Of a stretch of DNA of 64,000 nucleotides, positions 33,916 to 48,814 are shown piece after piece. The DNA comes from Giardia intestinalis (Eukaryota). Below the pieces are notes generated by a model. It saw only the letters and a list, made by a program, of their open reading frames with translations. It was not told the DNA's origin and made no database searches. Within the stretch, counting starts at the first letter, position 1; the number at the start of each line of letters is the position of its first letter. The stretch lies in the NCBI GenBank assembly GCA_000002435.2, contig CM018791.1, one strand, 5' to 3'. Both the position numbers and the translations under genes were made by a program.

Positions 33916-36900
33916 TCACATATCTTGTAAGAAGAGCTCTGGATACGCACGGGTCAGATTTCCAATCTTCTCCTTCATAGATGCAACGTCTTGCATGGCA
34001 TTGTCTATATCGTTGAGAAGCCTTTGCCTGTCCTGCTCGGCCGCCTCGTCTTCTATGTACGCTGCATTTTGCTGCAGGACGCTTACTGATGCCTTTGTCG
34101 CTGTCGCACGAGACATTGCCTCTGTGCACTGCGTCTCGGCAGTAGTAATCGCGTGCTTTTCCTTCTGGATTGAGCGCCGCAGGTTATTCTCTGTCACAGA
34201 AGATTGGCGCCGGATTTGGTTGATTGCCTGTTCTAAGCGCTGCTTCTCAGCAGCCAAGGACTCACGCTCTACCGATAGCTTCTTTAGCTGAATAAGCTGA
34301 ACCTCCGCATCTGTGCACAGCTTGATTCCTCCTTTCACCGCAGCCTTAGAGAGCTCTGGAAGAAACTTCTTGGCAGCTAAACCATATATTGAAGCCCCTT
34401 TCCCTTCCACTGCTAGCTGAGTCCCAGCCTTGTCAAGACCTGGAAGAGAAGACTTATTACTATCACTGTCACCCATCTTTTCTGGGTGACGGGCAGACTC
34501 GACTCTATTTCTTTTGGCCGCGAGCCCATCAATCTGAGCGCGCAGCTCAGTTGTCTCTGATGTCTTATCTGCTATTATCGCCTGCAAGTTGTGCACTCTA
34601 CTCCCAAGAGTCAGCTCTATCTCCTTTCCGCGGGCAGAGGCTATCCATATATCCTTATTGTATTTGGAAAGCTCGTCTCCTATTGAGCTTAAAAGGTCTG
34701 ACAACTTCGTCCTGAGATGGGAAATGTACAGATTACTGAAGTTCCGTTCTAAATGCAAGCGTATACGCACATTTCCCCACTCCTCCGTTAGGTCCTTGAG
34801 CATGGCGTCATACTTGGCAATGATATCGTAGTCATATTCTCCGAGGTTGTCATCGCCGATCGCACCCGTGGCACGCTCTGATGCAGGGTTTTGCTGAGCA
34901 AAATCCTTGGATATATAGCCCAGTGTAGTCATGTACGACTTTCTCGTGTTCAGCACTGCCCTATGTATCGTATCCTGCTTACGGCTTAGTAATAGATATC
35001 TGTGGCGCTTTGCTAGGAGTATACTATCGTAGAGGAGAAGAATCCGGCGGCTCATCTCTGCATGAAGAGCGTTCCTGAGGCAAGTTTCCTTGATGTGCAA
35101 CGATTTGACATTGTTGTAGCATTCCAGTGTCATGGTTGTGAGCTCCTCAGTATAGGCAGTGGCTACAGGGTTCAGCGATGCCAAAGCTCTTCGTGTGATC
35201 TCCTCCCGTAGGGCATGCTTTCGGGAGTGGAAAGCCTCTATGTTTCGATAGTTTTGCTTATAAAGCTTCAGCCCAAGAGCTCCTGTGCGCTTACCAATAA
35301 TATCTGTGAAGTAACTTTCAATTGCAGCCATTGACCCTGCAACATCGACCGCCAGGTCGTTGAACTTCTCGGTGACATTCTCTACTCTGAAGAGGAGCAG
35401 CTCCAGGGAAAATCGCTCCTTTTCAAGTGAGCTAGTGCTCTCAGATAGAGGAGGCGTTGCAGAAGCTTTTGGCAATAGAGACGTGCTCACATAAGAGGGC
35501 ATGTCAAGTGTATAGCTTAGTGCGTTTGCATGGGCTGCAGTATACACACTGGATAGTGTATAAAGAAAAGACATCGGGTTCCTTATCTGAACCCCCAGCA
35601 GTTCGCGTTTGAGCTTAGATGCCAACCTAGACACCGTGAAATTGATGAAGCCAGACATTATCCGGATAATATACATGTTCATGAGCGAATAGTCATCGAA
35701 GCTCAAATATGCTTGATCGAGGCTATCAACTGCCTTAGCTTTTAACTGCTTTATAGCGGCATCTCCTCCCTCAATGATACCGGTCTCTAGTATGTCCACA
35801 AGTGCCTTTGTTGCTTTAATCTTTGCTGATAGAGCAGCACTGTTAGAAAGTCCCGCGTCCCTGAAGCCCGAGGTGCTTATAATATCGCTTGGCATGGTGT
35901 CGACGAGTCCTGAGGCCAGTCCCATGGATACTATTATAGATGGAGGGATTTGCTTGAGAGATGATATCCCAAAGGATGCCTTAGCATTTGAGCGCTCACG
36001 ACTAAGAACATTTGCCATCTGGCTTAGTCGCACCCCCTCGCCTATGGAAGACAGGAAGTTAATGTAAGCAGATCCTAAAGAGGAGGCACCGCTGCCAAAG
36101 TCTATTGTCGCATCTGTAAGGGCGTTGTACTTGTTAAGTCCTGCAAGATTGTTCTCAAGGTATCCAATTCTTCTCCAGAGCTGTCTCATGGCTATACATT
36201 TTATGTTTTCGCAAAGAACTTCTGTCTGGACGCTTCGCAGGATGAAAAGACACTCCTGGAAGGATTGCACATCGGCCTTAACCGCTACCTTGTCTGTTGT
36301 TCGCTCGGACATATATACAAAAAGTGGTAAAGCTAAGAATGTTTGCATATCCCGCTTCTTTAGAGCGACAAGTGTTGGACCTTTGCTTCTATCAAAGACG
36401 CTCCTCTTTTTGTTAAGCTCATCCTCTTGCTGGCGTGTTTCCTGTAGCTTTTTGATGAACGGTATACGCATCATTTGTAAGGCACGTTGCACCCCAAAGA
36501 TCCCAACGGGAGAGAGAAGTGCAGAGTGCTTATGGTTATCATTAAACCCGTGCAGCCGCAAGTAGAGCCTCTCGAGCCTGTCCTGCTCAATTATCCGGCT
36601 TGCTAATATGCTCTCTATCTTTTTTCCGGCCCACGATGACTTATCGCAAGACGGTGAGTTACTCTTGCCTTCTGCCATGTTTGTGCCCGCATCAGTCTCT
36701 ACCTCCGCACCATACCCGGGTTGCTCACGCTCCTTGTTGGACGAGCGAGTCAGTTCGGTTATGCAAAGAGCATCCAACTCTAGTGATGTTAGTCCAGCTA
36801 GCAGAGAGGCACTTTGATCTGTTATCATGGCAGGAAGATACAAAGACCCAGGGAATATCTCCGAGTCTGTCTGAGGGGAGCTAGGACTGGGGACAGCGCT

Positions 36901-39900
36901 CTCTCCAAAGTCCAAGTCAGTGCTCAGATTTGCCGTGCAAGCAACAGAGGCTCTAGTGTCGAGCACGCTGTGCTTACGTTGTTTGAGTAACGTGAAGTCA
37001 TAGCACAACCCAAACGGGAAATAGGCCCCAATAGAACCATTAATACCAAACCCATTGGCAAGAGCGCGGATGTGTAGAGGACTAGAGTAGGGGGCATTAT
37101 ATGTGTTGATGTAAGAGAAGCTTGTAAAAGCTCGTATCGTAGATGGAATATAGGGACGTATTGTTAAAGGAGAAGCTTGTTGGGAGCCACAAGATAAGGA
37201 CCCCGAAATATAGTGGAAAACGACAGGATCCAGTAGTAAGGGAAGCCGATTTGTCAGGCCAGAACTTGAAATGCCGATCTTGTAAAGCTGAATGCGAGCC
37301 ACAGCATTTGTTAATGCAAATCGAGAGTGGAAATTAGAGATGCCGTCCATAACAGGGATATTCATGCATGCCATGAGAGACATGGTAGGTCCTGCAGCAT
37401 AGGAGGAGGTAGGATGGGACGAAAATACTGATCCAATCTGATAGTCAGCGGTCCTTTTGATATTTGCTTGCAAAGGGTATGTGAAATTCAACTTCTTTTC
37501 ACCATCGTTATCTGGAATATTCTGGTCGCTAGGTTTCGAGCCATTTGTTTCTGTGTGCTTTTCTGGATCAAGAGTTACCACAACGTTACTGTTCCGAGTG
37601 CAATATGAGGCAATTGAAGTATGTGGATGCTCTATCGCCGAGCGCACCATCTTGTTATGGTAATAGAATGGGGTCTTAAGGGATACGTCGTATGGTTCTA
37701 AACATTGATGCTTCAGTTTTAACTCCGAACTGCTTCTAGAGACAGTATCTATGGAATTGCCTGGAAAAGGCGTATATGGGCTTGCGCCTGCGTTCTCTTT
37801 CATGCTTCTTTGAAGAGCAGTTGTGGCCAGCTTCGTATAGAGGGCAGTCGGGTGTACTTCTAAATTAAAGCCATGCATGCCGAGCTGATAGTTGTACCTC
37901 ACTGCCAGGATCTGGGCTGTCCGTAAAAATGAACGTGCAGCTAGCCCCAGTCCTTTATGGACATAACTATTTGTTGCATGGGCCACTGTGGACAGGAGAA
38001 GCAGGTCAACACGGTCTTTCATCTCAATCAGCTTCTTGACAAAGATGTCCAGCTTGCAGTACTCGAGATTCCGCTTGGCCGTGTCATACAATACATAGAT
38101 GTCATCCTGCGTGTTTTCTAAGGTACCCTCAAGCTCCATCTCCATCACTCGCGTCTTTGACTGCACTGTAATAGCCTCCCTATCCACCAGCACTGTCTCC
38201 TGGCGCTTCTCTCCCGTATTTATTGCTTCCTCTGGAAGAATATATGACGAGTTCTCCTTTATGTCACGGATCACCTTGGAGTCTTTAGGCCTAGCATACC
38301 CTTTCACAGAGATAACGCTCAGGTATTCATGGACCACACTTGTCAATGCGCAATTCATGCTCTGAAGCTCCTTGTCTTCCAGATAAATGCATGAAGGAGT
38401 GAGAAGTGCGAAGAGATCAGTAGCGCTGAGGGCTTTTGCTTGGTCACCCTGGTTAACGTGATCACCGGAGCGCACGAGAGGGCCATCAGACGGGAGATGC
38501 ACGTTGAGACTGTGGCCTTTGTTTAGGTGCACGGTTACGTGTTGCAATTCAGGCATGAACTTTAGTTCATCGTTAATTATGCCGGCAGCAAACCATATGT
38601 CGCTGGAGTTAAGCAAGGTCTTAATAACCGCATACTGTACCACAGAATCCAGGCACGTTAGATACACGAGTATGATTTCCAAAATGGATATCTGATTGCT
38701 TTCTAATTGAAACGTAATAGGGTGTGGTATCGTGAAAGGATTGCTCAGGAAGCCTTCTGCAGTGAGTATCATTTCGGTAGAGTTCATGTTTGGCGCTTGC
38801 TCCAGTACTCCTCGATACAAGGGAGGAGAGTCCAGCAAAATGGTGAGCTTGTCCTGGTTAATCTCTTGTAGCACGCTTCGAAGCGCAGAGAGCTGCCCCT
38901 TGATCTGCGCCGTTATGGCAGTCCGTTTTGTCTCGGTAAGAAGGGCTTGGCAGCACGTGTAAAAGAGGGCCTGACGGTATGCAAAGAGAGCAGCTGGATT
39001 GGGATCATCACTATGAAATTGCTTGGTACGATAGCGGAACTCTGCACTGGCCAACAATGCAATCTTGCTTAGTGTTTCTTCTGAGGACACATAGTAGATA
39101 TTAGACAAATCTAGTGGAACAGTACGGTCTGATGAAACAAAAAAGCTGACTTGGTCCTTGGTTGCATTAACAAGAGGAATGGAATTAGCGAAAAACAAGC
39201 CTACCTTCATGCACTTGTACTTGTGCATAAACGCCGACTGTGTCTCGACAGGATCCATTGCAATCAAGCTATTGACAAGGTGTCTCCTACGTGCAAAGGC
39301 ATCGTAATATCCATGAACAGCCTTACTCATCACTGCAAAGACAGCTGAAAACTGATTATTCCTAATTACAGCTGACCTGTACGAATTGAGGCATACCTCC
39401 GTGTGCGCTGTTCTCCCGAAGATCCCAGTTACCCCCTGAAGGAAATCGGATATGAGGGGAGAGTCGCAAACACCCTTTATGTTGCCGGAGTTCAGCACTT
39501 CTTGAAGCGTCTCTCCCAGGATCGTCGTCATCTTGGTAGATATTCCATAGCCAAGGTCAAAGTCTTCTGAGAGAAGGCACGTCAACAAATGTATTGGGCT
39601 CTCTGTGTTAACGGTGAGAAGGTAGTGCATTGCTTCAACGTCAATTGTTGCTAGAAATGGAAGATTGTTAAGGAGCGCATCATAGGATACATACTCCTTA
39701 TAGTTGTACGCTTCTGCTGCAATCTCCTCTGACATCTTGGACTGCATGTTAGTATTTTTTAGCACACTGAAGTCAGTGTAAGAGCGATTGGCCAGTACAT
39801 TCTTAGACGCTCGTGCAGTTGTGGCGGAAAAGCTGCTCGCAAGAACCAGCCGTGGAAATAGGGGTATGCAATTTCTAGAAATGACTTCGCCGGTGAACAC

Positions 39901-42900
39901 CTCCACCTGACTTAGCTCGACGTTTCTAAGAACATGCGAAAAAACAGTTGCTGTGGCCAGAAGATGCCTACTCCACAACAGGTTAAGGAGTAGAACAAGC
40001 AGGAAGAATGGCATAGGGAGAACGTCGGGGTATCCTTCCCAGATGCGAAGATCGGTGTCCTTCAGTAGATTTGAAACTTGTATTCGTGCTCCCTGGTCCA
40101 GATAAATAAAGATATCCTTCAGCGTCACAGACCGTGCAAAGTGCTCGGCCAGCGGGCCAAATTCAACGCTATCTAGTTCAATAAAGTCCGCTTCTATCGG
40201 GTCGATATCGTTTAAGTTCTTGCTTGGGCCATCTGGGTCATTGAATGCAGAGAAGTTAGCTGTTGAAAAGGTTGAAATACCCCCATAAGTTGTTGAAAAC
40301 ATAGCTGACCCCGGGCTCGCTGTCCCATCTCGCACAGAAAGACTAAGATCGTCTTTTGTCGTTACTCGTAGCGTAGAAGTGCCCACTGCACTGCCCACTG
40401 CACTTTGGTCTAGTACGCTCTTGGTTGCTACCTCAGAGGTGTTATTTTGAACTGACTTGGTTAAATTGTGTGCACTCCCAGTTGCGGATGGAGCCCTAGA
40501 CCGTAACTTTTTGCGAAGCGCACTGCCCGCGCGATCAGGTCGTCGCTTAGCAGCCTTTTGCTGCTGCTCTAAAATTTGCTGTGCGCGCTCCGCCTTTTCC
40601 TTGATGGTAAGGGTGCCCTTTCCTATGTATCCGCCTCCCGCCGGAACCATAAGCCCAATGAGACTGCATACAAGCCTCTCGGCCACAATGTTCTTGTCTG
40701 ACGAGACTGTGTTACAAATGGACTTGTCGCTATCTGCCTTCTTCTGCACCATTGCGGTTTCAAGAAGATGAATCAGAGGCCTAGAACAACCAAGTAACCC
40801 AGAATTTGTGAAGATCTGCGTGTTTTTGGGCAAAGTACTTCCATTAGCTCGCCACAACTTGATCAAGCGAACTGACTCCCTTGCAAACACCCGTGCGACA
40901 GAGAGTCTACAAGTAAGCGATAGCTTCGCCGTGTAAATTGGAAAGCTGTGGACTTTGTTCATGGGCGCACCATCTGAGGTAGAGAGAACGGTCTGAACAG
41001 TGGTGAAGAGTTTTGGGTTAGATTCTGAGATGAACGCTCCAAAGAGCTCTGCAGACGCTTGATTCAAGGCAAGAGGAATTCTGTACAGTTCTGAGAGAGT
41101 GGGAATGTATGCACCTACAACATGGCATCTTGCAGGAGTACAGGGTGACTGTATGCTGAAGAATGACTCGGGATCTTTCTCTAAGCTCTGGGGTACGTGT
41201 CCAAATGGAAAGACTGTGAACCCAGCATGCCTACTGGCCCACTTATCTTCATTCCTAGTTGACTTAGAGGTGTCCAAATCTTTTTGTGAGATAAAGGCAT
41301 GATCTACATGAGAGCTGACCTTCGTATAGTGGTGCTTCATCTCATGATCAATGGCAGAAGTTAGAATACCCACAAGATGGTGCATTGTTTTTATCTCAAC
41401 TTCTAAAGGATATGCAGGGTGTGGAAGCATTCTGACAGTTAGGGCCGCCGCAGAAATGACTGGAAGCTCGCTCACGCTGTGGTTTGCCAAGAGGCCCGAA
41501 TCCAGGTCGTCTACGTTCAGCTCATCGTTAAAGCAGGGCATGGATGGGTACGAAAGAAAGCACTTTGGCCTGTTTTTGGCTAAGTTGTAGATAACTTGTT
41601 GGATCTCCCTTGCCTTTCCTACATCATATGTATGCAGAAGTGACTCGTAAATGCACGATATAGCCTTTCTCTTAGCGCAAAGGTACTGAAGTTCGCGGGT
41701 TAGTACGTCGTACAGGATGCCCAGCCGATCTACAACCGTTTCCAGGGAGACGGAGTCTACTAGAGCTTTGTCTGCCTTCCCCAGATTTTCATACATGTAC
41801 TTGTTACCCAGCTTGGCTAGATTTGGAGAACTCTCTGGGTCCTTATTTTCATCTAAAAGGTACCGGTAGAAGCTGCTTCTCTTGAAGCAAAGCCGCAAGG
41901 CAGCTGTCTTCATGCGAGCAAAGACTCTGGAGATGTAGATGCTTATCGCAATGTGGTCATCACGCAGGATGGCAGCAACATCTGCTATTGCAGATTGGAA
42001 TACTAGCTTCTTACGACTAAGGGAGTACACGCCGTCCTCAGCAATCAGAAAGAGGTGATTGAGTGCACTATCGCTAAGCTTTTGCGGGATATCAGCTGTA
42101 TTCAGAGGTAGAGCGTCGTGTGCTGATGTCTGTAACGAGGCAGATGCAGATTCGCCTATAGCCATACTATCTTGAAGAGTCTGTGTCCTCTTGAGATAGA
42201 GGAGGCTGTACCAAAGTTTGTCCAGTGGTGAAATATAGCTTGGTAGACTGTCAGTATTGATCAAATCGTTATATGTGTACTCGCACTGCCCTGCTATACG
42301 ACAGGCTGCATCGCTCGTACCGGGGATGTTAGTGGGCGACCGGCAAATTACTTTTTCTCCAGCCGAACCACCTGAATTTCTTTGAGCCCCCAGCAGAGGG
42401 TCCTTAGCAAAGTTTGTGCTCGAATACTCAATGGGCTGTACATTCAAAATTACGTCTAGCTCTGTTTTTGCAGCACCATCTGGGGTCTCTTTCTCTGCTA
42501 ATTCAGCCTGCGATCTGCAATGTGATTGTGATACTCCTGGCTCCACATCCTCGTATTCAACGGGGGTCTTTCGCAGTTCTCGAAGAGGAGATCTTAGAGG
42601 AGACCTAGTCGTTTGTACTCCTAATGCTGTGGATGGGCGTGGTGGCAACACCCGTTTCGAGGACATGGCAGGACGCTGTGGAGACCTAGATGGACTGCAT
42701 GAGTCTTCGTGAGCATCCTTTGAATAAGTAATGTCGCTAACTCGTGAAAAGTCGCCTCCAAGAAAGTCAACTAATACGCGTGTATTAGCCAATATGGCAT
42801 GGATCTTTGTCATTTCTAACACCATGTCTGTCCACATCTTAGAGAGGGCAATGAACCGTATATAAGTCAGTGCTGTGTAGAGTATTTTGTACAAATACGA

Positions 42901-45426
42901 GTTTTCGCCATGCTCACAATCACTAGTAAGACAGTCCCATGCATCTATTCCTTTCTGTGCTTCGTCGCTGAGCAGACGAGCGCCTATGCTGGTCTTTTCA
43001 TTGGCGGAGCAGGTGGTGATAAGCCCAAGGACTATTGCACACAGCTTATCCAAAGACACTGAAACACTGGCTCCAGCAGTTGTGCAATATTTATGCGCAA
43101 TCCAGCCATTTGAACCGGACGAGTATGAACGTGCAGCATCCTTCCAAGCGTACATCACATTGCGATACTCTAGCCGATCCTTGTCATTCAGTAGAGTGCC
43201 TGGCAGACTATTGAGCTGTTCAACTTCAATCGGTGCACGAGGCTTTGAGGCATTTGGGTTGAGCAAGAACTTTTGAACCGAGTGAACAGAGGGACTGACG
43301 CGAAGAATGTCATCGTACACAAGCTCGGAGGACTGGAGACTCAGTATATTTAGTGAATCGTACAAGGACTGCTCTTGCTTAGACAGCCCGTCCGGATTGA
43401 GTCCAGACTTAGTGTTTATTCCATAAATGGATTGATTAAGACCATCGCCGCTGATGGAACTACTGGAGTCGCCTGTGTAGACTGCATATGGCGTAAGGTT
43501 ATCATACCCTGGGTCGGTATAGTATCGTCCCAGAGAGTCTCCCAGCGGTGGTTGATAAAGTTGGTCAAAGCTCCTATCGTCGTTGAGTAAGATGTAAATA
43601 TCATTATGTCGAGACTCCACAGATTGCCCCTGACCTGTTTTTGCGGAATCTAAGGCATCAGGTTCAAGTTCGTGGTCTACAGACTCGGGATTACCTCCAG
43701 CTGCACCTTCTGATCGAATCCCTTTGGAGAAGAAGTGAGGAAGCACGTTAGTTAGGTTACTAAATAATTCCTTAGAGAGATATAATAACTTTCCTGACAA
43801 AAGCTCTTTATCTGAGCTTCTGCCCTGCATGGACGTTGCAGAATCAATACTAGTTAGAATTTTTTGTATCAGTGCATCTGTATTGATCACAGTGCTCCGA
43901 GGAGCAGCTTTGTCAGTGGTAGAAACAGTCCCCTTGGATAGAGTGCTGGTGAAAAAGATGGACCAGTCTATTTCCTCTGTAATCCCCACCTCTTTGAGGT
44001 TGCCCAGAACCATCAGCGAGCTTACACACTCTTCAACAGTAAGTGGGAGGGTCGGGGGTGCTAGTTGCGTGAGATAAGGCAGAGTAGGCAGAGAGACCAT
44101 TCCAGGACGGATAGATGAGGATAGCGATTCGCAACTAGGTTTAAAGGTCAGTGCATTAATAATTGGAAGAGACATGTTGTGTGCTTTGAAGAGCTGCCTT
44201 GCTGATACGTATCTTATGAAGCTGCTGTCCACGCTAGCTGTGTCCTTCATGGTCCCTGCTCTTGTTGAGGAAGGGATAGTGGAAGGTTTGCTAAAGATAT
44301 TCTCTGTACCATTGGCTGAAACGAAGTTCTGGTGACTCATAGCGTGGGTGCTCGCGTCGTCCACGAAGGACAAGGATACGTCGTTAAATGTTCTGGCCTC
44401 TATCATTGCATCCAGTATTGTTAGCTCCTGGTGAACCAGCGAAGTATAGTCCAGTTGGGGAAGCATCTCGTCCAAAAAGCTGAGTGTCCAGACATGACGC
44501 CGAACAGAGGCCTTAACGTCTTCAGTGGTTATCCAGTGATCCACCCCCGCAAAGACCGCACTAATAGCGGTATTGAGACCCATGTTACCCACAGAGGCAC
44601 CATCAACGGCTGCTCGCTTCGTGCACGAAGCCAGATCGAAGGATACTGCGTTGGAGTCCAATCCCAAGACACGAAGCTCTGTCTTTAAGCGAGTAATAAT
44701 GGTATCTTTGCTCTCGAAGTTAACCTCTGATTCTAGGAAGCAAGAAAAGACCTTTGTGAGAAGATGATCTGGAAGAACAATGTGCGAATGGACAGCTAGA
44801 GAGACAAGCCTGGTCAATAAGTCAAGTGCGGCTTGCTTGTGTCGAGTAATCTCTGCCTGCAGGAGTGAGAGTCGACATAGATTCCGGGGGCTTGCAAACT
44901 GATTGGCTACGATGAGCTTGAACAGCAAGCTACGTTCTACATGCTTGAGTTGGGTATACGCAGCAAGATTATCTTGAATTAAAAAAGAGATGAAACTGGG
45001 TGAATCGTAGGCGCATGGCTGCCCGGCAGAAAGAGTTTGAGAGACCAGAATGTCTGCATATGAAGGGGTAGCAGGAGGCTTATTCCCCAACGTGTCATAC
45101 GCCCGAGCAAAGTAATTTGTCAAGAGTGCGTGGGAGTCCTCACCGTCCAGAAGATCACCGTTGGTGTACGGCAAGGATACACCGTAAAGCGCCCTGGCGA
45201 GAGTTTTGTCTACGTCACTCATATGCAGCAACGAGTCATGGGAGAATTCTGCAGAAGTTGCAGCAGCATTGGTGAGATTGTTATGCGGCCTGCGTGAAAT
45301 GTTGGCCAGAACACGTTCATCAGCAAGTTCATGTATGCGATATATGGAAGAGGTCAGAGACGAGTAAACAGTTTGTGAGTCACTCTTCACAGACCTAAGA
45401 ATCTCACTTATTAGCTCTGTGTCCAT
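33916..45426 (-). CDS. Giant hypothetical protein (3836 aa) encoded by a single uninterrupted 11.5-kb ORF; C-terminal coiled-coil region
   Basis: The ORF runs from ATG 45426 to the stop at 33916. No P-loop, kinase, BEACH or other catalytic motif was recognised by eye. The last ~350 aa are heptad-rich (LSVERESLAAEKQRLEQAINQIRRQ...). Confidence 0.75.
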   Translation of the reverse strand: MDTELISEILRSVKSDSQTVYSSLTSSIYRIHELADERVLANISRRPHNNLTNAAATSAEFSHDSLLHMSDVDKTLARALYGVSLPYTNGDLLDGEDSHALLTNYFARAYDTLGNKPPATPSYADILVSQTLSAGQPCAYDSPSFISFLIQDNLAAYTQLKHVERSLLFKLIVANQFASPRNLCRLSLLQAEITRHKQAALDLLTRLVSLAVHSHIVLPDHLLTKVFSCFLESEVNFESKDTIITRLKTELRVLGLDSNAVSFDLASCTKRAAVDGASVGNMGLNTAISAVFAGVDHWITTEDVKASVRRHVWTLSFLDEMLPQLDYTSLVHQELTILDAMIEARTFNDVSLSFVDDASTHAMSHQNFVSANGTENIFSKPSTIPSSTRAGTMKDTASVDSSFIRYVSARQLFKAHNMSLPIINALTFKPSCESLSSSIRPGMVSLPTLPYLTQLAPPTLPLTVEECVSSLMVLGNLKEVGITEEIDWSIFFTSTLSKGTVSTTDKAAPRSTVINTDALIQKILTSIDSATSMQGRSSDKELLSGKLLYLSKELFSNLTNVLPHFFSKGIRSEGAAGGNPESVDHELEPDALDSAKTGQGQSVESRHNDIYILLNDDRSFDQLYQPPLGDSLGRYYTDPGYDNLTPYAVYTGDSSSSISGDGLNQSIYGINTKSGLNPDGLSKQEQSLYDSLNILSLQSSELVYDDILRVSPSVHSVQKFLLNPNASKPRAPIEVEQLNSLPGTLLNDKDRLEYRNVMYAWKDAARSYSSGSNGWIAHKYCTTAGASVSVSLDKLCAIVLGLITTCSANEKTSIGARLLSDEAQKGIDAWDCLTSDCEHGENSYLYKILYTALTYIRFIALSKMWTDMVLEMTKIHAILANTRVLVDFLGGDFSRVSDITYSKDAHEDSCSPSRSPQRPAMSSKRVLPPRPSTALGVQTTRSPLRSPLRELRKTPVEYEDVEPGVSQSHCRSQAELAEKETPDGAAKTELDVILNVQPIEYSSTNFAKDPLLGAQRNSGGSAGEKVICRSPTNIPGTSDAACRIAGQCEYTYNDLINTDSLPSYISPLDKLWYSLLYLKRTQTLQDSMAIGESASASLQTSAHDALPLNTADIPQKLSDSALNHLFLIAEDGVYSLSRKKLVFQSAIADVAAILRDDHIAISIYISRVFARMKTAALRLCFKRSSFYRYLLDENKDPESSPNLAKLGNKYMYENLGKADKALVDSVSLETVVDRLGILYDVLTRELQYLCAKRKAISCIYESLLHTYDVGKAREIQQVIYNLAKNRPKCFLSYPSMPCFNDELNVDDLDSGLLANHSVSELPVISAAALTVRMLPHPAYPLEVEIKTMHHLVGILTSAIDHEMKHHYTKVSSHVDHAFISQKDLDTSKSTRNEDKWASRHAGFTVFPFGHVPQSLEKDPESFFSIQSPCTPARCHVVGAYIPTLSELYRIPLALNQASAELFGAFISESNPKLFTTVQTVLSTSDGAPMNKVHSFPIYTAKLSLTCRLSVARVFARESVRLIKLWRANGSTLPKNTQIFTNSGLLGCSRPLIHLLETAMVQKKADSDKSICNTVSSDKNIVAERLVCSLIGLMVPAGGGYIGKGTLTIKEKAERAQQILEQQQKAAKRRPDRAGSALRKKLRSRAPSATGSAHNLTKSVQNNTSEVATKSVLDQSAVGSAVGTSTLRVTTKDDLSLSVRDGTASPGSAMFSTTYGGISTFSTANFSAFNDPDGPSKNLNDIDPIEADFIELDSVEFGPLAEHFARSVTLKDIFIYLDQGARIQVSNLLKDTDLRIWEGYPDVLPMPFFLLVLLLNLLWSRHLLATATVFSHVLRNVELSQVEVFTGEVISRNCIPLFPRLVLASSFSATTARASKNVLANRSYTDFSVLKNTNMQSKMSEEIAAEAYNYKEYVSYDALLNNLPFLATIDVEAMHYLLTVNTESPIHLLTCLLSEDFDLGYGISTKMTTILGETLQEVLNSGNIKGVCDSPLISDFLQGVTGIFGRTAHTEVCLNSYRSAVIRNNQFSAVFAVMSKAVHGYYDAFARRRHLVNSLIAMDPVETQSAFMHKYKCMKVGLFFANSIPLVNATKDQVSFFVSSDRTVPLDLSNIYYVSSEETLSKIALLASAEFRYRTKQFHSDDPNPAALFAYRQALFYTCCQALLTETKRTAITAQIKGQLSALRSVLQEINQDKLTILLDSPPLYRGVLEQAPNMNSTEMILTAEGFLSNPFTIPHPITFQLESNQISILEIILVYLTCLDSVVQYAVIKTLLNSSDIWFAAGIINDELKFMPELQHVTVHLNKGHSLNVHLPSDGPLVRSGDHVNQGDQAKALSATDLFALLTPSCIYLEDKELQSMNCALTSVVHEYLSVISVKGYARPKDSKVIRDIKENSSYILPEEAINTGEKRQETVLVDREAITVQSKTRVMEMELEGTLENTQDDIYVLYDTAKRNLEYCKLDIFVKKLIEMKDRVDLLLLSTVAHATNSYVHKGLGLAARSFLRTAQILAVRYNYQLGMHGFNLEVHPTALYTKLATTALQRSMKENAGASPYTPFPGNSIDTVSRSSSELKLKHQCLEPYDVSLKTPFYYHNKMVRSAIEHPHTSIASYCTRNSNVVVTLDPEKHTETNGSKPSDQNIPDNDGEKKLNFTYPLQANIKRTADYQIGSVFSSHPTSSYAAGPTMSLMACMNIPVMDGISNFHSRFALTNAVARIQLYKIGISSSGLTNRLPLLLDPVVFHYISGSLSCGSQQASPLTIRPYIPSTIRAFTSFSYINTYNAPYSSPLHIRALANGFGINGSIGAYFPFGLCYDFTLLKQRKHSVLDTRASVACTANLSTDLDFGESAVPSPSSPQTDSEIFPGSLYLPAMITDQSASLLAGLTSLELDALCITELTRSSNKEREQPGYGAEVETDAGTNMAEGKSNSPSCDKSSWAGKKIESILASRIIEQDRLERLYLRLHGFNDNHKHSALLSPVGIFGVQRALQMMRIPFIKKLQETRQQEDELNKKRSVFDRSKGPTLVALKKRDMQTFLALPLFVYMSERTTDKVAVKADVQSFQECLFILRSVQTEVLCENIKCIAMRQLWRRIGYLENNLAGLNKYNALTDATIDFGSGASSLGSAYINFLSSIGEGVRLSQMANVLSRERSNAKASFGISSLKQIPPSIIVSMGLASGLVDTMPSDIISTSGFRDAGLSNSAALSAKIKATKALVDILETGIIEGGDAAIKQLKAKAVDSLDQAYLSFDDYSLMNMYIIRIMSGFINFTVSRLASKLKRELLGVQIRNPMSFLYTLSSVYTAAHANALSYTLDMPSYVSTSLLPKASATPPLSESTSSLEKERFSLELLLFRVENVTEKFNDLAVDVAGSMAAIESYFTDIIGKRTGALGLKLYKQNYRNIEAFHSRKHALREEITRRALASLNPVATAYTEELTTMTLECYNNVKSLHIKETCLRNALHAEMSRRILLLYDSILLAKRHRYLLLSRKQDTIHRAVLNTRKSYMTTLGYISKDFAQQNPASERATGAIGDDNLGEYDYDIIAKYDAMLKDLTEEWGNVRIRLHLERNFSNLYISHLRTKLSDLLSSIGDELSKYNKDIWIASARGKEIELTLGSRVHNLQAIIADKTSETTELRAQIDGLAAKRNRVESARHPEKMGDSDSNKSSLPGLDKAGTQLAVEGKGASIYGLAAKKFLPELSKAAVKGGIKLCTDAEVQLIQLKKLSVERESLAAEKQRLEQAINQIRRQSSVTENNLRRSIQKEKHAITTAETQCTEAMSRATATKASVSVLQQNAAYIEDEAAEQDRQRLLNDIDNAMQDVASMKEKIGNLTRAYPELFLQDM

Positions 45427-45492
45427 AGATTGCGAAACCTGCAGAGAACAGACTAGCGATCAGGAAGGCCCGGGATTTAAAATTTTAAAGCC
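45427..45492. promoter_or_regulatory. 66-bp divergent promoter between the giant gene and the CFAP20-domain gene (contains aaaattttaaag)
   Basis: Outward-facing ATGs at 45426 (minus) and 45493 (plus). Confidence 0.45.
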
Positions 45493-47370
45493 ATGTTCAA
45501 GCGGGCGTTCCAGGGAGGACCCTTCATTTCGCTGCTTGAAATAAAGGGCCAAGCACCTGCACAAGGATGGAACATGAAGAAGGCTACTATTGCCCGTAAT
45601 TACAACAAGGAGATGAAAACTTATGTTCTCGATGTTGACGGCCCCGTTGGCTCAAAGATTACAATGCCCGAGGCGCCCGAGAAACAAGTTCTTGGCATCA
45701 TACAACCGTTTCTCTTGATGCAATTATTTATTCCCAAAGACCAGATTTTCTCCTTGAACTTAGGTGTTGCCGATTGCTCCAAAAACAGAATTAGACTATA
45801 CTTTTCAACAGCTAATAAAGTAGTAAAGATAACCTCTCTCCATGCCAGGTTGCCACTGCACGCAGTCGCAGGTGCGTGGTCATGTCTCGTCTTCGATTTA
45901 ATGGAGATTACTCGCAGCTGCTTTCCGAATTCAGAATTTGCCAGTCTGAATTCTGTTGAGATAATGCCGTGCTGTACCTTACTGCGCGTTTTCACTGTCA
46001 AGACATGCCCTCTTCCCACCCTGGAGCTCTATTGTCCGAAAGACGAAGAAGACGCGCGCGCAAATCCGCGTATGCCAAAGCCCCGGTTTAGCCTTAGGCA
46101 GTATGCGCCTTTAGACAAGAAGGTGGAGATTGGGATTGATGTGCACGTACAGGTGTTGGATGAATTTTACCTCTCGCTCTTTCGTGAAAACAAGCCAAAT
46201 ACAGACCTTGCTGTACGGGACAGAGATACTCTCCTAGAGGCCCGCAAAGAATTCATCCCTGGTTATAGGGAAGCAGAAGAGAAGCCTCCTGAATCGGTCA
46301 AAATTGTAAAGAATGCACCACTAATTCAGATTGATGCAGGTGCCCATACCGCTGCCAAGACTGTGAGATCAGATCCTGATGCAACAGTATCTCCGAAAGA
46401 CTCTGATCCCGTCCCGGAACGGAAGTATAACGTTTTGGCTAGCGAATCCCACGATCAGCCTCCTACACATATTAAGCAAAGCACAGATGCCAGGGCAGCG
46501 AAGGGGCGCCAGGTGGCAAAGCCTTCTGGGACAGGCAGCATTAGAGCAGCTATAGAGTTCAATGCCAAGCAAGATGATAGCAGTGTGGCAGCTGCATCTA
46601 TTGGTCGTGAGAAGAGTCAAGATTTTGTGCGGCAAACCAGCAAAATACCAAAGATGAGTGCACAATGTGACACTACTAATAGCGTAATAGATCTGACTCT
46701 CAACGCCATCCCCGTTGTGCTAAATCCAGAGCAGTGTGGAAAGAGCGCAACTAGTGCAAATGGGGTCACCACTGATAGAGCTACTACGCCAGTTACACGG
46801 CTCAAGGGAGTGCGGGTTGGTCTTGTGGACGATGAAGTTCTCGGGAGCATGGTCGAGACCCAGAACTATGCTGTTCTGGGAGATGCAAATATGCCAACTG
46901 ATACCGCTGCTCCAGGCAGCAACAAAATGGATACCAGCAAAATGGCTAGGAGCATGGTCAATACCCTTGTAACTTCTAACCGGACAATACCACAGGATCT
47001 TATCGACACTGTCTATAGTGTCGCTACAAATGAAGGGCAGCCAGACTCTGAAGACATAGAGGATTATGACGGCGGAGTAGACGACCTTGGGGGGCAATTT
47101 ACAAATGCACACGCAAGTGTAGTTAACGATGATGCCAATGAAGGTGATAGCGACAGCTCCTACAGCTACTACTCAACGGACAATGATAATGATGACAATG
47201 ACGATATCCCTGATCCGGCCCCAGATGGGGAGACGCACTCTGCTGTGCCAGATCCAGCTACCAATCTCCGCCTTGCCAGTCAGCTATCTGGTGGAATAAG
47301 ATACGATGAAAACACAGGTGTATACTTAGAGATTGATGATTCCAATATCCCTGGGCCTATGGACGAATAG
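45493..47370 (+). CDS. CFAP20/DUF667-domain protein paralog (N-terminal ~190 aa BUG22-like fold) with a long acidic, D/N-rich C-terminal extension; CFAP20DC-like
   Basis: The N-terminus aligns along the whole CFAP20 (BUG22) domain: MFKRAFQGGPFISLL, LGIIQPFLLMQLFIP, RIRLYFSTANKVVKITSLHARLPLHAVAGAWSCLVFDLMEITRSCF, LLRVFTVKTCPLPTLELYCP. The tail has DNDNDDNDD runs. Confidence 0.7.
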   Translation: MFKRAFQGGPFISLLEIKGQAPAQGWNMKKATIARNYNKEMKTYVLDVDGPVGSKITMPEAPEKQVLGIIQPFLLMQLFIPKDQIFSLNLGVADCSKNRIRLYFSTANKVVKITSLHARLPLHAVAGAWSCLVFDLMEITRSCFPNSEFASLNSVEIMPCCTLLRVFTVKTCPLPTLELYCPKDEEDARANPRMPKPRFSLRQYAPLDKKVEIGIDVHVQVLDEFYLSLFRENKPNTDLAVRDRDTLLEARKEFIPGYREAEEKPPESVKIVKNAPLIQIDAGAHTAAKTVRSDPDATVSPKDSDPVPERKYNVLASESHDQPPTHIKQSTDARAAKGRQVAKPSGTGSIRAAIEFNAKQDDSSVAAASIGREKSQDFVRQTSKIPKMSAQCDTTNSVIDLTLNAIPVVLNPEQCGKSATSANGVTTDRATTPVTRLKGVRVGLVDDEVLGSMVETQNYAVLGDANMPTDTAAPGSNKMDTSKMARSMVNTLVTSNRTIPQDLIDTVYSVATNEGQPDSEDIEDYDGGVDDLGGQFTNAHASVVNDDANEGDSDSSYSYYSTDNDNDDNDDIPDPAPDGETHSAVPDPATNLRLASQLSGGIRYDENTGVYLEIDDSNIPGPMDE

Positions 47371-47662
47371 TCTGTGTTTCTGCTATCATAGATTGAAACT
47401 TAGACTTCTCCTTCCTATCACCTTTTGTCCTTCTGAGATGCATTAGTTAATATGAAACCCTAACATCCACTCTAGCACTCACGTGATATAAAAGACCTCA
47501 GCGAAAGGACCCTATCCTACTTTATGTCACTAAAACTGGTACAACCTCGACTCACCGGGGTTCTCCACGACACCAAAAGAGTAAACCTTCAGTCGACAGT
47601 TGACCCCACCAACGACCGACATCGCGGGAAAACAAAGATTCACTCCCAAGCTCGAGTTGGTC

Positions 47663-48814
47663 TTACCTTGCCTCTTCGAGTGTCACAGAAAGCTTAGACC
47701 CATCGATGTCCATATTGCTAAATGCTTCCATGAGAATCTTCCCGTTCTCCTCCGTGCAGAAGAACGATATCACAGAGGAATCGGGACGCCTGGGTCTCTG
47801 CAGGTGGGACTCCGCGATAGCCTTCAGAATACTTGCATGCTCATTCTCGTTGAGGCTTCCCTTAATGTCGTCGAAAGTGACACCACTGGGGACATTCGCG
47901 ACCTTCAGGAAGCTTGGAAGCCTCTTTCCATCAGCGGCGCGCTTCTTCGTGGAGCTCTGTTTGTCACCCTGAGCTCCCCTTCGAGATTGTGACCCTGACT
48001 GATCAGCCTTATCAGTTCCAGCCTTGTCCTTTGCGCGACCTGCCGCCTCACTGGGCTTCTTCTTCTTGTCGCTTGCAGCAGACCCATCGCCTGCAGAGTC
48101 TAACCTCTCGCGACGCTCCTGGGCACGCTTGCGACGCTCTTCTAAGTTGATAAACTTGATAGATGGGACGCGCTCAAAGTAGCCGTCAGCAAGGAGGCTG
48201 TTGAAGATCTTCTCAACGTCGGAAACCGGGACAACGACGGCCACCCTCGTGCCTCTCTGCGGCGCACGCCCCTCGACAAATCGAATAGCCATCATCGCGC
48301 ACCTGTCCTTCACCGATGCACCGCTGCCGTCCTTGAGGGCGTCCGCCTCGACCTTCTCGCGAATGGCATCCAACACCTGGTACTTTGCAGTGATTTTAAA
48401 CTTGTGATCCTTGGCTGGCGTGATCTTCGAGAACGTCTTGGTCAAGAAAGCGATGACCTTCTCTGAGTCTATGATTCCATCCGGTGCGGAGCTAACCACA
48501 AGGAGAGCGTTTTTGTCCGACTTGAGGTAGTCCGCGTTCTGCTCCTTGAACCTAGCGAAGAAAGCCTTGTTGCGCTCGACAAAGACCTGGCGCAGGACAA
48601 TCTGGTCTGGGGAAACTAGCTCAGCGTTAGAATGCTTCTCCTGAATGGCGGAGAAGAACTTATGGTACCCGCAAGGTATCTCAACACCCTTCTCAGTCTC
48701 GCGGACATTGGAGAGGAACTTTCGAGAAAAGAGCTCCCTGACATTCCCCGCGACCTCCTTTATGGAGGCCATAAACTCATCAGTGAGCTTCGCACCCTTA
48801 ACGATGATTGGCAT
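47663..48814 (-). CDS. Hypothetical protein with a Lys/Arg-rich disordered region and a C-terminal RRM-like domain
   Basis: 383 aa. C-terminal RNP-like elements (FLKVANVPSGVTFDDIK ... SSVISFFCTEENGKILMEAF). Central segment RRKRAQERRERLDSAGDGSAASDKKKKPSEAAGRAKDK. Confidence 0.45.
   Translation of the reverse strand: MPIIVKGAKLTDEFMASIKEVAGNVRELFSRKFLSNVRETEKGVEIPCGYHKFFSAIQEKHSNAELVSPDQIVLRQVFVERNKAFFARFKEQNADYLKSDKNALLVVSSAPDGIIDSEKVIAFLTKTFSKITPAKDHKFKITAKYQVLDAIREKVEADALKDGSGASVKDRCAMMAIRFVEGRAPQRGTRVAVVVPVSDVEKIFNSLLADGYFERVPSIKFINLEERRKRAQERRERLDSAGDGSAASDKKKKPSEAAGRAKDKAGTDKADQSGSQSRRGAQGDKQSSTKKRAADGKRLPSFLKVANVPSGVTFDDIKGSLNENEHASILKAIAESHLQRPRRPDSSVISFFCTEENGKILMEAFSNMDIDGSKLSVTLEEAR

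What the first reader, a model, noticed from the sequence alone, without database searches (positions are those of the whole stretch)
45493..47370. Divergent CFAP20 (BUG22/DUF667) domain paralog with a long acidic low-complexity tail
The first ~190 aa align along the entire CFAP20 fold (MFKRAFQGGPFISLL / LGIIQPFLLM / RIRLYFSTANKVVKI...AGAWSCLVFDLMEITRSCF / LLRVFTVK). They are far more divergent than the near-invariant canonical CFAP20. The domain is followed by ~430 aa of disordered sequence ending in D/N-rich runs. This architecture parallels metazoan CFAP20DC, which is poorly characterised, and suggests an axoneme inner-junction related paralog.
Basis: partly seen in the sequence, partly recalled or inferred. 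Interest (0 to 1): 0.6.

Follow-up and report, generated by a model that had tools for sequence, protein, structure and literature searches.

The report
Giardia ortholog of ciliary protein CFAP20DC

Summary
The ORF at 45493..47370 (+) is real, 625 aa, and identical to Giardia intestinalis WB GL50803_007328, annotated "hypothetical protein". Residues 1-186 match Pfam CFA20_dom (154 bits, cutoff 24). An AlphaFold model superposes on CFAP20 from solved doublet microtubules (TM 0.83-0.86, rmsd ~1.7 A). It is not a degenerate copy of CFAP20. Against subfamily HMMs built without diplomonads it scores 189-194 bits for CFAP20DC/C3orf67-type proteins, 49 for canonical CFAP20 and 34 for WDR90. Its best hits outside diplomonads are proteins NCBI names CFAP20DC. 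The architecture is shared: a folded module extending to about aa 265, a ~320-aa disordered linker, an acidic stretch, and a C-terminal beta-hairpin (YDENTGVYLE) matching the family's YDPxTxKYYEL ending (profile-profile P=3e-6; 0 of 200 shuffles). Members occur in animals, chytrids, oomycetes and diplomonads, so the family is probably as old as eukaryotes. Function is inferred, not shown: a basic tubulin-binding module anchoring a projecting tail. No solved axoneme contains it, and the PACRG-contacting residues of CFAP20 are not conserved. Verdict: new member of a known, poorly characterised family; modest interest.

The parts
45475..45489 (+). AT-rich element (ATTTAAAATTTTAAA) 3 nt upstream of the ATG, inside the 66-bp interval (45427-45492) shared with the divergently oriented 3836-aa ORF. 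It is the likely initiator/promoter.
   Evidence: Read directly from the sequence. That Giardia promoters are short AT-rich initiators next to the start codon is my own knowledge and was not tested.
45493..47370 (+). Complete ORF of 625 aa plus the TAG stop. It equals GL50803_007328, which I assign as the Giardia CFAP20DC ortholog.
   Evidence: Full-length orthologs exist in G. duodenalis assemblage B (78%), G. muris (44%) and Spironucleus salmonicida (34%).
45493..46050 (+). CFA20 (DUF667) beta-jelly-roll domain, aa 1-186. It is basic (pI 8.8).
   Evidence: Pfam PF05018 at 154 bits. AF2 pLDDT is 80-97. Foldseek matches CFAP20 chains in doublet structures with TM 0.83-0.86 and rmsd 1.6-1.8 A over about 174 residues. 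Superfamily-invariant residues Q7, P59, L67, F86, R101, S105, P121 and W129 are retained. pI is.
46003..46287 (+). Post-domain extension, aa 171-265, that packs into the folded module: LELY strand, helix 182-190, strand HVQVL 218-222, helix 224-228, and a diplomonad-specific strand 239-242 plus helix 244-254.
   Evidence: It is highly conserved among diplomonads. AF2 pLDDT is about 76-92. The order of elements matches the Nematostella CFAP20DC model. Sequence-level similarity to the family is not significant.
46324..47277 (+). Predicted disordered linker, aa 278-595. It is A/S/T/V-rich and near neutral up to about aa 520, then acidic.
   Evidence: AF2 pLDDT is below 50. Conservation is poor except for short islands.
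46690..46800 (+). Diplomonad-conserved islands within the linker, aa 400-436: DLTLNAIPV ... G416 ... TPVTR.
   Evidence: Columns D400, L401, A405, P407, V408, G416, T432, P433, V434 and R436 are invariant across 7 diplomonad sequences. No match to the wider family was found. Function is unknown.
47113..47202 (+). D/N/S-rich acidic run, aa 541-570 (NDDANEGDSDSSYSYYSTDNDNDDNDD), within the acidic segment aa 521-625 (net -26).
   Evidence: An acidic stretch also directly precedes the terminal motif in other family members.
47293..47334 (+). C-terminal beta-hairpin motif, aa 601-614 (GIRYDENTGVYLEI). It is a degenerate copy of the CFAP20DC family ending ...YDPxLxCY[YF]DPxTxKYYEL.
   Evidence: AF2 predicts strands 602-605 and 610-613 with pLDDT 70-80. 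hhalign of the diplomonad profile against the family motif profile gives P=3e-6. The observed score of 26.6 exceeds the maximum of 15.4 in 200 column shuffles. D605 and Y611 lie in columns at least 90% conserved across 63 family members. A single-sequence HMM test is not significant for G. duodenalis itself.

Best explanation
The gene encodes the Giardia ortholog of CFAP20DC (C3orf67). This is an ancient paralog family of the axonemal inner-junction protein CFAP20 and probably dates to the last eukaryotic common ancestor. The architecture is shown here. It has an N-terminal basic CFA20 beta-jelly-roll enlarged by a family-typical extension (aa 1 to about 265), a disordered linker of about 320 aa, an acidic stretch, and a short C-terminal beta-hairpin. 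The mechanism is inferred, not shown. The basic jelly-roll would bind the acidic tubulin surface at a junction-type site of a stable microtubule structure such as an axoneme or basal body. CFAP20 does this at the A-B inner junction, and the WDR90 DUF667 domain binds both microtubules and free tubulin in vitro. The C-terminus of CFAP20 points to the outside of the doublet. By analogy, the long tail would project away from the lattice and present the conserved terminal hairpin as a docking element, for a partner or for the protein's own N-terminal module. It probably does not pair with PACRG the way CFAP20 does, because the two PACRG-contacting residues of CFAP20 are replaced throughout the subfamily.
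For: Identity: Pfam CFA20_dom at 154 bits, and the fold superposes on CFAP20 from solved doublets. Subfamily assignment: HMMs built without diplomonads give 193.5 bits for CFAP20DC-type, or 189 bits when that set is defined only by its C-terminal motif, against 48.8 for CFAP20 and 34.1 for WDR90. In an exhaustive search of 1.84 billion proteins, the best hits outside diplomonads are long proteins with an N-terminal domain. These include NCBI 'protein CFAP20DC' from Nematostella and 'C3orf67 homolog' from Anneissia. The reciprocal direction agrees: Nematostella CFAP20DC scores about 111 bits with the Giardia domain but only about 48 bits with any CFAP20. The NJ tree places diplomonads with CFAP20DC (59% bootstrap, against 14% and 12% for the alternatives). 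The position of CFAP20 T38 is Y or F in CFAP20DC and Y in all diplomonads. Shared architecture: 79 of 145 non-diplomonad hits carry the C-terminal double YDP motif. The motif is matched in diplomonads. The post-domain secondary structure is collinear in the Giardia and Nematostella models. Antiquity: motif-bearing members occur in animals, Chytriomyces, Pythium and marine protists. Mechanistic analogy: the CFA20 domain is basic in all three subfamilies, with median pI 9.3-9.7. FAP20 binds tubulin electrostatically and its C-terminus faces outward (PMC6994238). WDR90 DUF667 domains bind microtubules and tubulin directly (PMC7500955). A homozygous C3orf67 nonsense variant was reported in a primary ciliary dyskinesia patient (PMC12767239).
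Against: No localisation, expression or binding data for this protein were found. No solved axoneme from human, bovine, mouse, sea urchin, Tetrahymena, Chlamydomonas, Trypanosoma, Leishmania or Trichomonas contains a CFAP20DC-type chain. It is therefore not a stoichiometric component of the 48-nm doublet repeat. PACRG-contact residues K20 and T38 of FAP20 are not conserved. Tree support for the diplomonad + CFAP20DC clade is only moderate (51-59%). The C-terminal motif in G. duodenalis itself is degenerate and undetectable by a single-sequence HMM test. The extension shows no significant sequence similarity to the family. The PCD link rests on case reports without functional work.
Confidence: 0.72

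Rival explanations
1. The protein is a lineage-specific, fast-evolving duplicate of canonical CFAP20 that arose in diplomonads and acquired a disordered tail independently. Its resemblance to CFAP20DC would then be convergent.
For: Diplomonad sequences form a long branch. The diplomonad + CFAP20DC split has only 51-59% bootstrap, and 3-14% of replicates pair diplomonads with CFAP20. The terminal motif is a short, intrinsically hairpin-forming sequence that could arise by convergence.
Against: The domain scores about 140 bits higher against the CFAP20DC HMM than against the CFAP20 HMM. The motif lies at the same C-terminal position after an acidic stretch, with profile-profile P=3e-6. The extension topology is collinear with Nematostella CFAP20DC. 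The aromatic residue at the T38 position is shared.
Confidence: 0.07
2. The protein is a truncated WDR90/POC16 derivative that lost its WD40 propellers. It would be the centriolar triplet inner-junction protein rather than CFAP20DC.
For: WDR90 also carries an N-terminal DUF667 domain followed by a long C-terminal region and is conserved in ciliated organisms (PMC4004596; PMC7500955). About 4-12% of bootstrap replicates pair diplomonads with WDR90.
Against: It has the lowest subfamily HMM score, 34 bits. Pfam finds no WD40 or any second domain. AF2 predicts disorder where propellers would be. No WDR90-type protein appears among the best 150 hits.
Confidence: 0.03
3. It is a true CFAP20DC ortholog, but the family's function is not at an axonemal junction. 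One option is a role on other Giardia microtubule arrays such as the ventral disc, median body or funis. Another is a non-microtubule role in which the OCRE-like terminal hairpin binds proline-rich ligands, as in the RBM5/RBM10 splicing regulators.
For: CFAP20DC is absent from every solved doublet structure. The PACRG-contact residues are lost. C-termini of 22 of 29 family members hit Pfam OCRE at E<=0.01, one of them above the curated cutoff. The profile weakly finds the solved RBM5 and RBM10 OCRE domains.
Against: All named taxa carrying the family are flagellated lineages: animals, a chytrid, oomycetes, Rhodelphis and diplomonads. The CFA20 domain stays basic, like the tubulin-binding relatives. 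There is a PCD case report. The OCRE resemblance is partial and is matched equally well by designed hairpins, so it may reflect only hairpin propensity.
Confidence: 0.18

Closest known systems
CFAP20DC / C3orf67 (CFA20 domain-containing protein; metazoan members such as Nematostella XP_032221977.2)
   Same: Both have an N-terminal CFA20 domain of the same subfamily (189-194 bits), a post-domain extension with the same predicted order of helices and strands, a long disordered region, an acidic stretch, and a C-terminal YDPxTxxY[YL]E hairpin at the very end of the protein.
   Different: The Giardia terminal motif is degenerate. It has one clear YDxxTGxYLE repeat instead of the double LLYDPxLNCY[YF]DPxTxKYYEL, and it lacks the Cys and the Pro. 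Giardia has an extra strand-helix (aa 239-254) in the folded module and diplomonad-specific linker islands (DLTLNAIPV, TPVTR). Domain identity is only 33-40%.
CFAP20 / FAP20 / BUG22 (axonemal A-B inner-junction protein)
   Same: Both have the same beta-jelly-roll fold (TM 0.83-0.86, rmsd about 1.7 A), a basic domain, and the superfamily-invariant core residues.
   Different: CFAP20 is a protein of about 190 aa with no tail and is nearly invariant across eukaryotes. The Giardia protein is 27-30% identical to it, is 625 aa long, and has different residues at the PACRG-contact positions K20 (A21) and T38 (Y37).
WDR90 / POC16 (centriolar microtubule-wall protein)
   Same: Both have an N-terminal CFA20/DUF667 domain followed by a large C-terminal region. 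The WDR90 domain was shown to bind microtubules and tubulin (PMC7500955).
   Different: WDR90 continues into WD40 propellers, whereas the Giardia protein continues into disorder. The domain similarity is the weakest of the three subfamilies at 34 bits.
OCRE domain (PF17780; RBM5, RBM10)
   Same: Both contain Tyr-rich YDPxTGxYY-type beta-strand repeats. Family C-termini hit the OCRE model (22 of 29 at E<=0.01).
   Different: Only 2-3 strands are present, against the roughly 52-residue OCRE domain. Most hits are below Pfam's cutoff, and the Giardia sequence itself gives no hit. Designed chignolin-like hairpins match the motif profile equally well. This is a resemblance, not membership.

Membership tests
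CFA20 domain superfamily (Pfam PF05018 / DUF667) | Significant match to the curated profile over most of its length | tested here: met
   E=3.6e-45 and 154.4 bits against a cutoff of 24. Protein aa 1-186 match profile positions 1-177 of 185.
CFA20 domain superfamily (Pfam PF05018 / DUF667) | Beta-jelly-roll fold superposable on CFAP20 | tested here: met
   The AF2 model has pLDDT 80-97. Foldseek against PDB matches CFAP20 chains with E about 1e-16, TM 0.83-0.86 and rmsd 1.6-1.8 A over about 174 residues. This is a predicted, not an experimental, structure.
CFAP20DC / C3orf67 | Domain sequence closer to CFAP20DC than to CFAP20 or WDR90 | tested here: met
   Subfamily HMMs built without diplomonads give 193.5 bits (189 with the motif-defined set) versus 48.8 and 34.1. 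The top hits outside diplomonads are named CFAP20DC or C3orf67. The NJ tree is consistent but only moderately supported (59%).
CFAP20DC / C3orf67 | Domain at the N-terminus followed by several hundred residues of disordered sequence | tested here: met
   AF2 pLDDT is below 50 for aa 278-595. The Nematostella CFAP20DC model has the same layout.
CFAP20DC / C3orf67 | C-terminal ...YDPxLxCY[YF]DPxTxKYYEL motif within the last ~30 residues (present in 79 of 145 non-diplomonad hits) | tested here: met
   Profile-profile comparison gives P=3e-6. The observed score of 26.6 exceeds the maximum of 15.4 in 200 shuffles. D605 and Y611 are in columns at least 90% conserved. Caveat: a single-sequence HMM detects it in Spironucleus, P0008 and P0009 but not in G. 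duodenalis itself. The Giardia copy is degenerate.
CFAP20DC / C3orf67 | Family-typical extension after the CFA20 core (PxDT..., IPxxxxF, V..TQV strand, helix) | tested here: inconclusive
   Sequence tests are not significant: hmmsearch gives -0.5 bits while shuffles reach 9.5, and hhalign gives P=0.24-0.46. The predicted secondary-structure order and the residues on the matching strand (HVQVL versus HYTQVI) do coincide. The two models could not be superposed with the tools available (the afdb50 library was unavailable).
CFAP20DC / C3orf67 | Cilium-related function or localisation | not testable with these tools
   There are only indirect hints. Named members come from flagellated lineages, and there is a PCD case report.
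Canonical CFAP20 / FAP20 / BUG22 | Single-domain protein of about 190 aa with near-invariant sequence (over 90% identity across eukaryotes) | tested here: not met
   The protein is 625 aa and 27-30% identical to CFAP20. Canonical CFAP20 is about 92% identical between human and protists.
Canonical CFAP20 / FAP20 / BUG22 | PACRG-contacting residues K20 and T38 (PMC6994238) | tested here: not met
   K20 aligns to A21, and to N or D in CFAP20DC. T38 aligns to Y37, and to Y or F in CFAP20DC.
WDR90 / POC16 | DUF667 domain followed by multiple WD40 repeats | tested here: not met
   No WD40 or other Pfam hit at E<=1. The tail is predicted disordered. The WDR90 HMM scores 34 bits.
OCRE domain (PF17780) | Match to the roughly 52-residue OCRE profile above the curated cutoff | tested here: not met
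   The Giardia C-terminus gives no hit, and Spironucleus gives 13.9 bits. Of the wider family, 22 of 29 hit at E<=0.01, but only the chytrid member exceeds the 24.7-bit cutoff.

The most novel reading that the evidence does not exclude
CFAP20DC is a third, LECA-era CFA20-domain protein that builds or caps a junction-type site distinct from the PACRG-CFAP20 inner junction. Candidate sites are the basal body or transition zone, or a Giardia-specific array. Its conserved C-terminal chignolin/OCRE-like hairpin would act as a universal docking element at the end of a flexible acidic tether. Giardia has eight long axonemes and good genetics, so it would be a tractable system for working out the function of a candidate human primary ciliary dyskinesia gene.
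Probability: 0.15. Interest if true: 0.6.

Novelty: new member of a known kind. Interest (0 to 1): 0.3.

Why it matters
CFAP20DC/C3orf67 has essentially no functional literature. The 23 papers in the library that mention CFAP20DC do so mostly incidentally, and the only disease link is case reports of primary ciliary dyskinesia. If Giardia carries a full-architecture ortholog, the family predates the divergence of metamonads from other eukaryotes. Three features have then survived about as long as eukaryotes have existed: the enlarged CFA20 module, the aromatic residue replacing the PACRG-contact Thr, and the terminal hairpin. That points to the parts worth mutating, and it offers a genetically tractable flagellate for testing function. 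For Giardia annotation, it replaces 'hypothetical protein' with a specific family assignment. It does not reveal a new kind of system.

Tried and rejected
(1) A PDB sequence search with the full-length protein gave no hits. The domain alone was needed to recover CFAP20.

(2) I looked for Giardia's own canonical CFAP20 using human CFAP20 as the query. The 120 rows shown were all sequences 78-100% identical to human, and no Giardia entry appeared. It is also not in this window: tblastn finds only the gene under study.

(3) I saw a similarity by eye in the post-domain extension ([IM]PKxxxF ... HxxQV[LI]). It failed both hmmsearch and hhalign, so I do not claim it at sequence level.

(4) I looked for further shared tail islands, such as the family's FSPP and HIAFG motifs against the Giardia DLTLNAIPV. 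None were found.

(5) Literature searches for GL50803_7328, A8BHP0, Giardia+DUF667, Giardia+CFAP20 and Giardia+7328 returned only incidental matches. Lauwaet et al. 2011, on the Giardia basal-body proteome, is not held.

(6) The AlphaFold DB fold library was unavailable. I predicted Nematostella CFAP20DC instead and compared secondary structure only.

(8) I considered assigning the terminal motif to the OCRE domain family and rejected it. The matches are partial and mostly sub-threshold, and designed hairpins match equally well.

(9) The two neighbouring genes gave no functional context.
Full report
**Observation.** The ORF at 45493..47370 (+) is real, begins with ATG and encodes 625 aa. The sequence is identical to GL50803_007328 (XP_001706900.1, UniProt A8BHP0) of Giardia intestinalis WB C6, which NCBI labels 'hypothetical protein'. 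The ATG lies 3 nt after an AT-rich element (ATTTAAAATTTTAAA) and 66 bp from the start of a divergently oriented 3836-aa ORF. Full-length orthologs exist in G. duodenalis assemblage B (78% identity), G. muris (44%), Spironucleus salmonicida (34%) and several unnamed assemblies. It is therefore a conserved diplomonad gene.

**The domain.** Pfam CFA20_dom (PF05018) matches aa 1-186 with E=3.6e-45 and 154 bits against a cutoff of 24. Identity to canonical CFAP20 is about 27-30%. An AlphaFold2 model built from a 63-sequence family alignment is confident for aa 1 to about 265 (pLDDT 80-97). It superposes on CFAP20 chains from solved doublet microtubules of human, bovine, mouse, sea urchin, Chlamydomonas, Tetrahymena, Trichomonas, T. 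brucei and Leishmania. Scores are E about 1e-16, TM 0.83-0.86 and rmsd 1.6-1.8 A over about 174 residues.

**Which CFA20 family.** Three families carry this domain: CFAP20, WDR90/POC16 (PMC4004596; PMC7500955) and CFAP20DC/C3orf67.

- An exhaustive phmmer search of 1.84 billion representatives with aa 1-200 found 717 proteins. After the diplomonads, the best hits (87-127 bits, 33-40% identity) are proteins of 500-1100 aa with an N-terminal domain.
- The named hits are 'protein CFAP20DC' (Nematostella), 'C3orf67 homolog' (the crinoid Anneissia), and uncharacterised proteins of sea urchin and Rhodelphis.
- I collected canonical CFAP20 and WDR90 sequences. The WDR90 query was my recollection of the human N-terminus. 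Only the returned database sequences, which carry WDR90 source names, were used.
- I built subfamily HMMs that exclude all diplomonads. The Giardia domain scores 193.5 bits against the CFAP20DC type, 48.8 against CFAP20 and 34.1 against WDR90.
- The CFAP20DC set had been chosen by similarity to the query, which is circular. I therefore rebuilt it from the 50 non-redundant proteins defined only by their C-terminal motif. The score is still 189 bits.
- A neighbour-joining tree with 500 bootstraps recovers diplomonads (98%), CFAP20 (100%) and WDR90 (100%) as clades. It places diplomonads with CFAP20DC at 59%, against 14% with CFAP20 and 12% with WDR90. With a noisier set the figure is 51%. The tree is consistent but only moderately supported.

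**Shared architecture beyond the Pfam domain.**

*C-terminal motif.* Of the 145 non-diplomonad proteins retrieved, 79 end within a few residues of a double motif, [LIVM]x[YF]DPxLxCY[YF]DPxTxKYYEL, usually after an acidic run. Diplomonads end in related sequences: Spironucleus ILADPVAFGLFYDPVTKSYYE, G. muris GMVYDPATGAYLE and G. duodenalis GIRYDENTGVYLE.

- An HMM of the non-diplomonad motif detects it in P0008 (E=0.016), Spironucleus (E=0.046) and P0009 (E=1.1), all at Z=5000. It does not detect it in G. duodenalis alone.
- Profile against profile, the diplomonad C-terminus aligns to the family motif with P=3e-6.
- Against the whole diplomonad tail, the observed score is 26.6. The maximum in 200 column shuffles is 15.4.
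- In the full-length family alignment, D605 and Y611 fall in columns at least 90% conserved.
- AlphaFold predicts a hairpin there (strands 602-605 and 610-613, pLDDT 70-80). In Nematostella CFAP20DC it predicts a three-stranded mini-sheet with pLDDT about 95.

*Post-domain extension.* The folded module is larger than the Pfam domain. After the jelly-roll core, both models show the same order: helix, one-residue bridge, short helix, a 5-6 residue strand (Giardia HVQVL, Nematostella HYTQVI) and a helix. Giardia adds one more strand-helix pair. This extension shows no statistically significant sequence similarity. I rate that feature inconclusive.

*Signature residue.* At the position of CFAP20 T38, CFAP20DC proteins have Y or F, and all diplomonads have Y.

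**The tail.** Residues 266-520 are near neutral (net -3) and A/S/T/V-rich. Residues 521-625 carry net -26 with 21% Asp, including the D/N run at 541-570. AlphaFold gives pLDDT below 50 for aa 278-595. Diplomonad-specific conserved islands (DLTLNAIPV, TPVTR) have no counterpart in the wider family.

**The terminal motif and OCRE.** C-termini of family members hit Pfam OCRE (PF17780). The chytrid member scores 33.6 bits, above the 24.7 cutoff. Metazoan members score about 19-20 bits, Spironucleus 13.9 and Giardia nothing. Overall, 22 of 29 hit at E<=0.01. However, the motif profile finds the solved RBM5 and RBM10 OCRE domains only at E about 0.02. It matches designed hairpin proteins carrying YDPETGTW at least as well. 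I recognise that sequence as the chignolin minimal hairpin; this is my own knowledge. I therefore treat 'OCRE-like' as a resemblance. The motif is a strong hairpin former whose conserved position argues for a conserved binding role. It does not pass the OCRE membership test.

**Distribution and age.** Motif-bearing members come from animals, Chytriomyces, Pythium and marine protist transcriptomes, and in degenerate form from diplomonads. A Rhodelphis protein has the domain without the motif. The family therefore spans several eukaryotic supergroups and probably dates to the last eukaryotic common ancestor. All named taxa are flagellated, but this is a small sample and not a phyletic test.

**Mechanism (inferred).** The following points come from the literature and the comparisons above.

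- FAP20 is a beta-jelly roll sandwiched between protofilaments A1 and B10.
- FAP20 binds tubulin through a positively charged surface.
- FAP20 has its C-terminus on the outside of the doublet.
- FAP20 contacts PACRG through K20 and T38 (PMC6994238).
- WDR90 DUF667 domains bind microtubules and free tubulin directly (PMC7500955).
- The CFA20 domain is basic in all three subfamilies (median pI 9.3-9.7). The Giardia module has pI 8.8, while its tail has pI 4.35.

The most likely mechanism is that the N-terminal module binds a tubulin lattice at a junction-type site, and the tail projects outward carrying the terminal hairpin as a docking element.

Two observations argue that this site is not the ordinary PACRG-CFAP20 inner junction. 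The K20 and T38 equivalents are replaced across the subfamily. No solved doublet structure contains a CFAP20DC-type chain, and even the named Nematostella protein finds only CFAP20 at about 48 bits. The only functional hint in the literature held here is a homozygous C3orf67 p.Arg170* variant in a primary ciliary dyskinesia patient (PMC12767239). No paper in the library mentions the Giardia gene.

**Not established.** I could not retrieve Giardia's canonical CFAP20. 'Paralog within Giardia' therefore rests on the statement that Bug22 is conserved in all centriole-bearing species (PMC4242763) and on the canonical CFAP20 in the Trichomonas doublet. Localisation, binding and phenotype are all untested.

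**Verdict.** The domain is already recognised by Pfam and UniProt in sister strains, and the family is known though uncharacterised. This is therefore a new member of a known kind, of modest interest. Its main value is a better annotation and a possible experimental entry point to a candidate ciliopathy gene.

Noticed in passing
window 33916..45426 (-): A very large ORF of 3836 aa has no Pfam match at E<=0.01. It is transcribed divergently from the CFAP20DC-like gene, with only 66 bp between the two start codons, so they may share a promoter region.
   Followed up: partly
window 47663..48814 (-): A 383-aa ORF lies convergent with the gene under study. It has a basic Lys/Arg/Ser-rich middle region and only a sub-threshold LIAS_N hit (18 bits against a cutoff of 27).
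   Followed up: partly
proteins P0015, P0019, P0029, P0062, P0067, P0078, P0105: A subgroup of long CFA20-domain proteins ends in ...D(D/E)xLS(I/M)DL instead of the YDP...YYE motif. Pythium P0023 has the YDP motif. Some lineages, possibly stramenopiles, may therefore carry two different long CFA20-domain paralogs.
   Followed up: no
proteins P0034 (2140 aa) and P0142 (1796 aa): The CFA20 domain lies at about aa 1300-1490 rather than at the N-terminus. P0142 still ends in the YDP motif. These are either gene fusions or merged gene models.
   Followed up: no
window 47371..47600 (+): No exact AGTRAAY-type Giardia polyadenylation signal occurs within about 30 nt after the stop codon. AGTAAAC occurs at 47580-47586, about 210 nt downstream. 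The 3' end of the transcript is therefore uncertain.
   Followed up: no
window 47293..47334 (aa 601-614) and family C-termini: The conserved terminal motif YDPxTGxY is nearly the sequence of designed minimal beta-hairpins (YDPETGTW), which the motif profile retrieves from PDB (3wkn, 7on8). A natural, ancient, chignolin-like hairpin at a protein C-terminus is a small curiosity in its own right.
   Followed up: partly
protein P0210: A canonical CFAP20 sequence from Macaca mulatta carries the source name 'Transcription factor IIB'. This is apparently a legacy or erroneous annotation.
   Followed up: no
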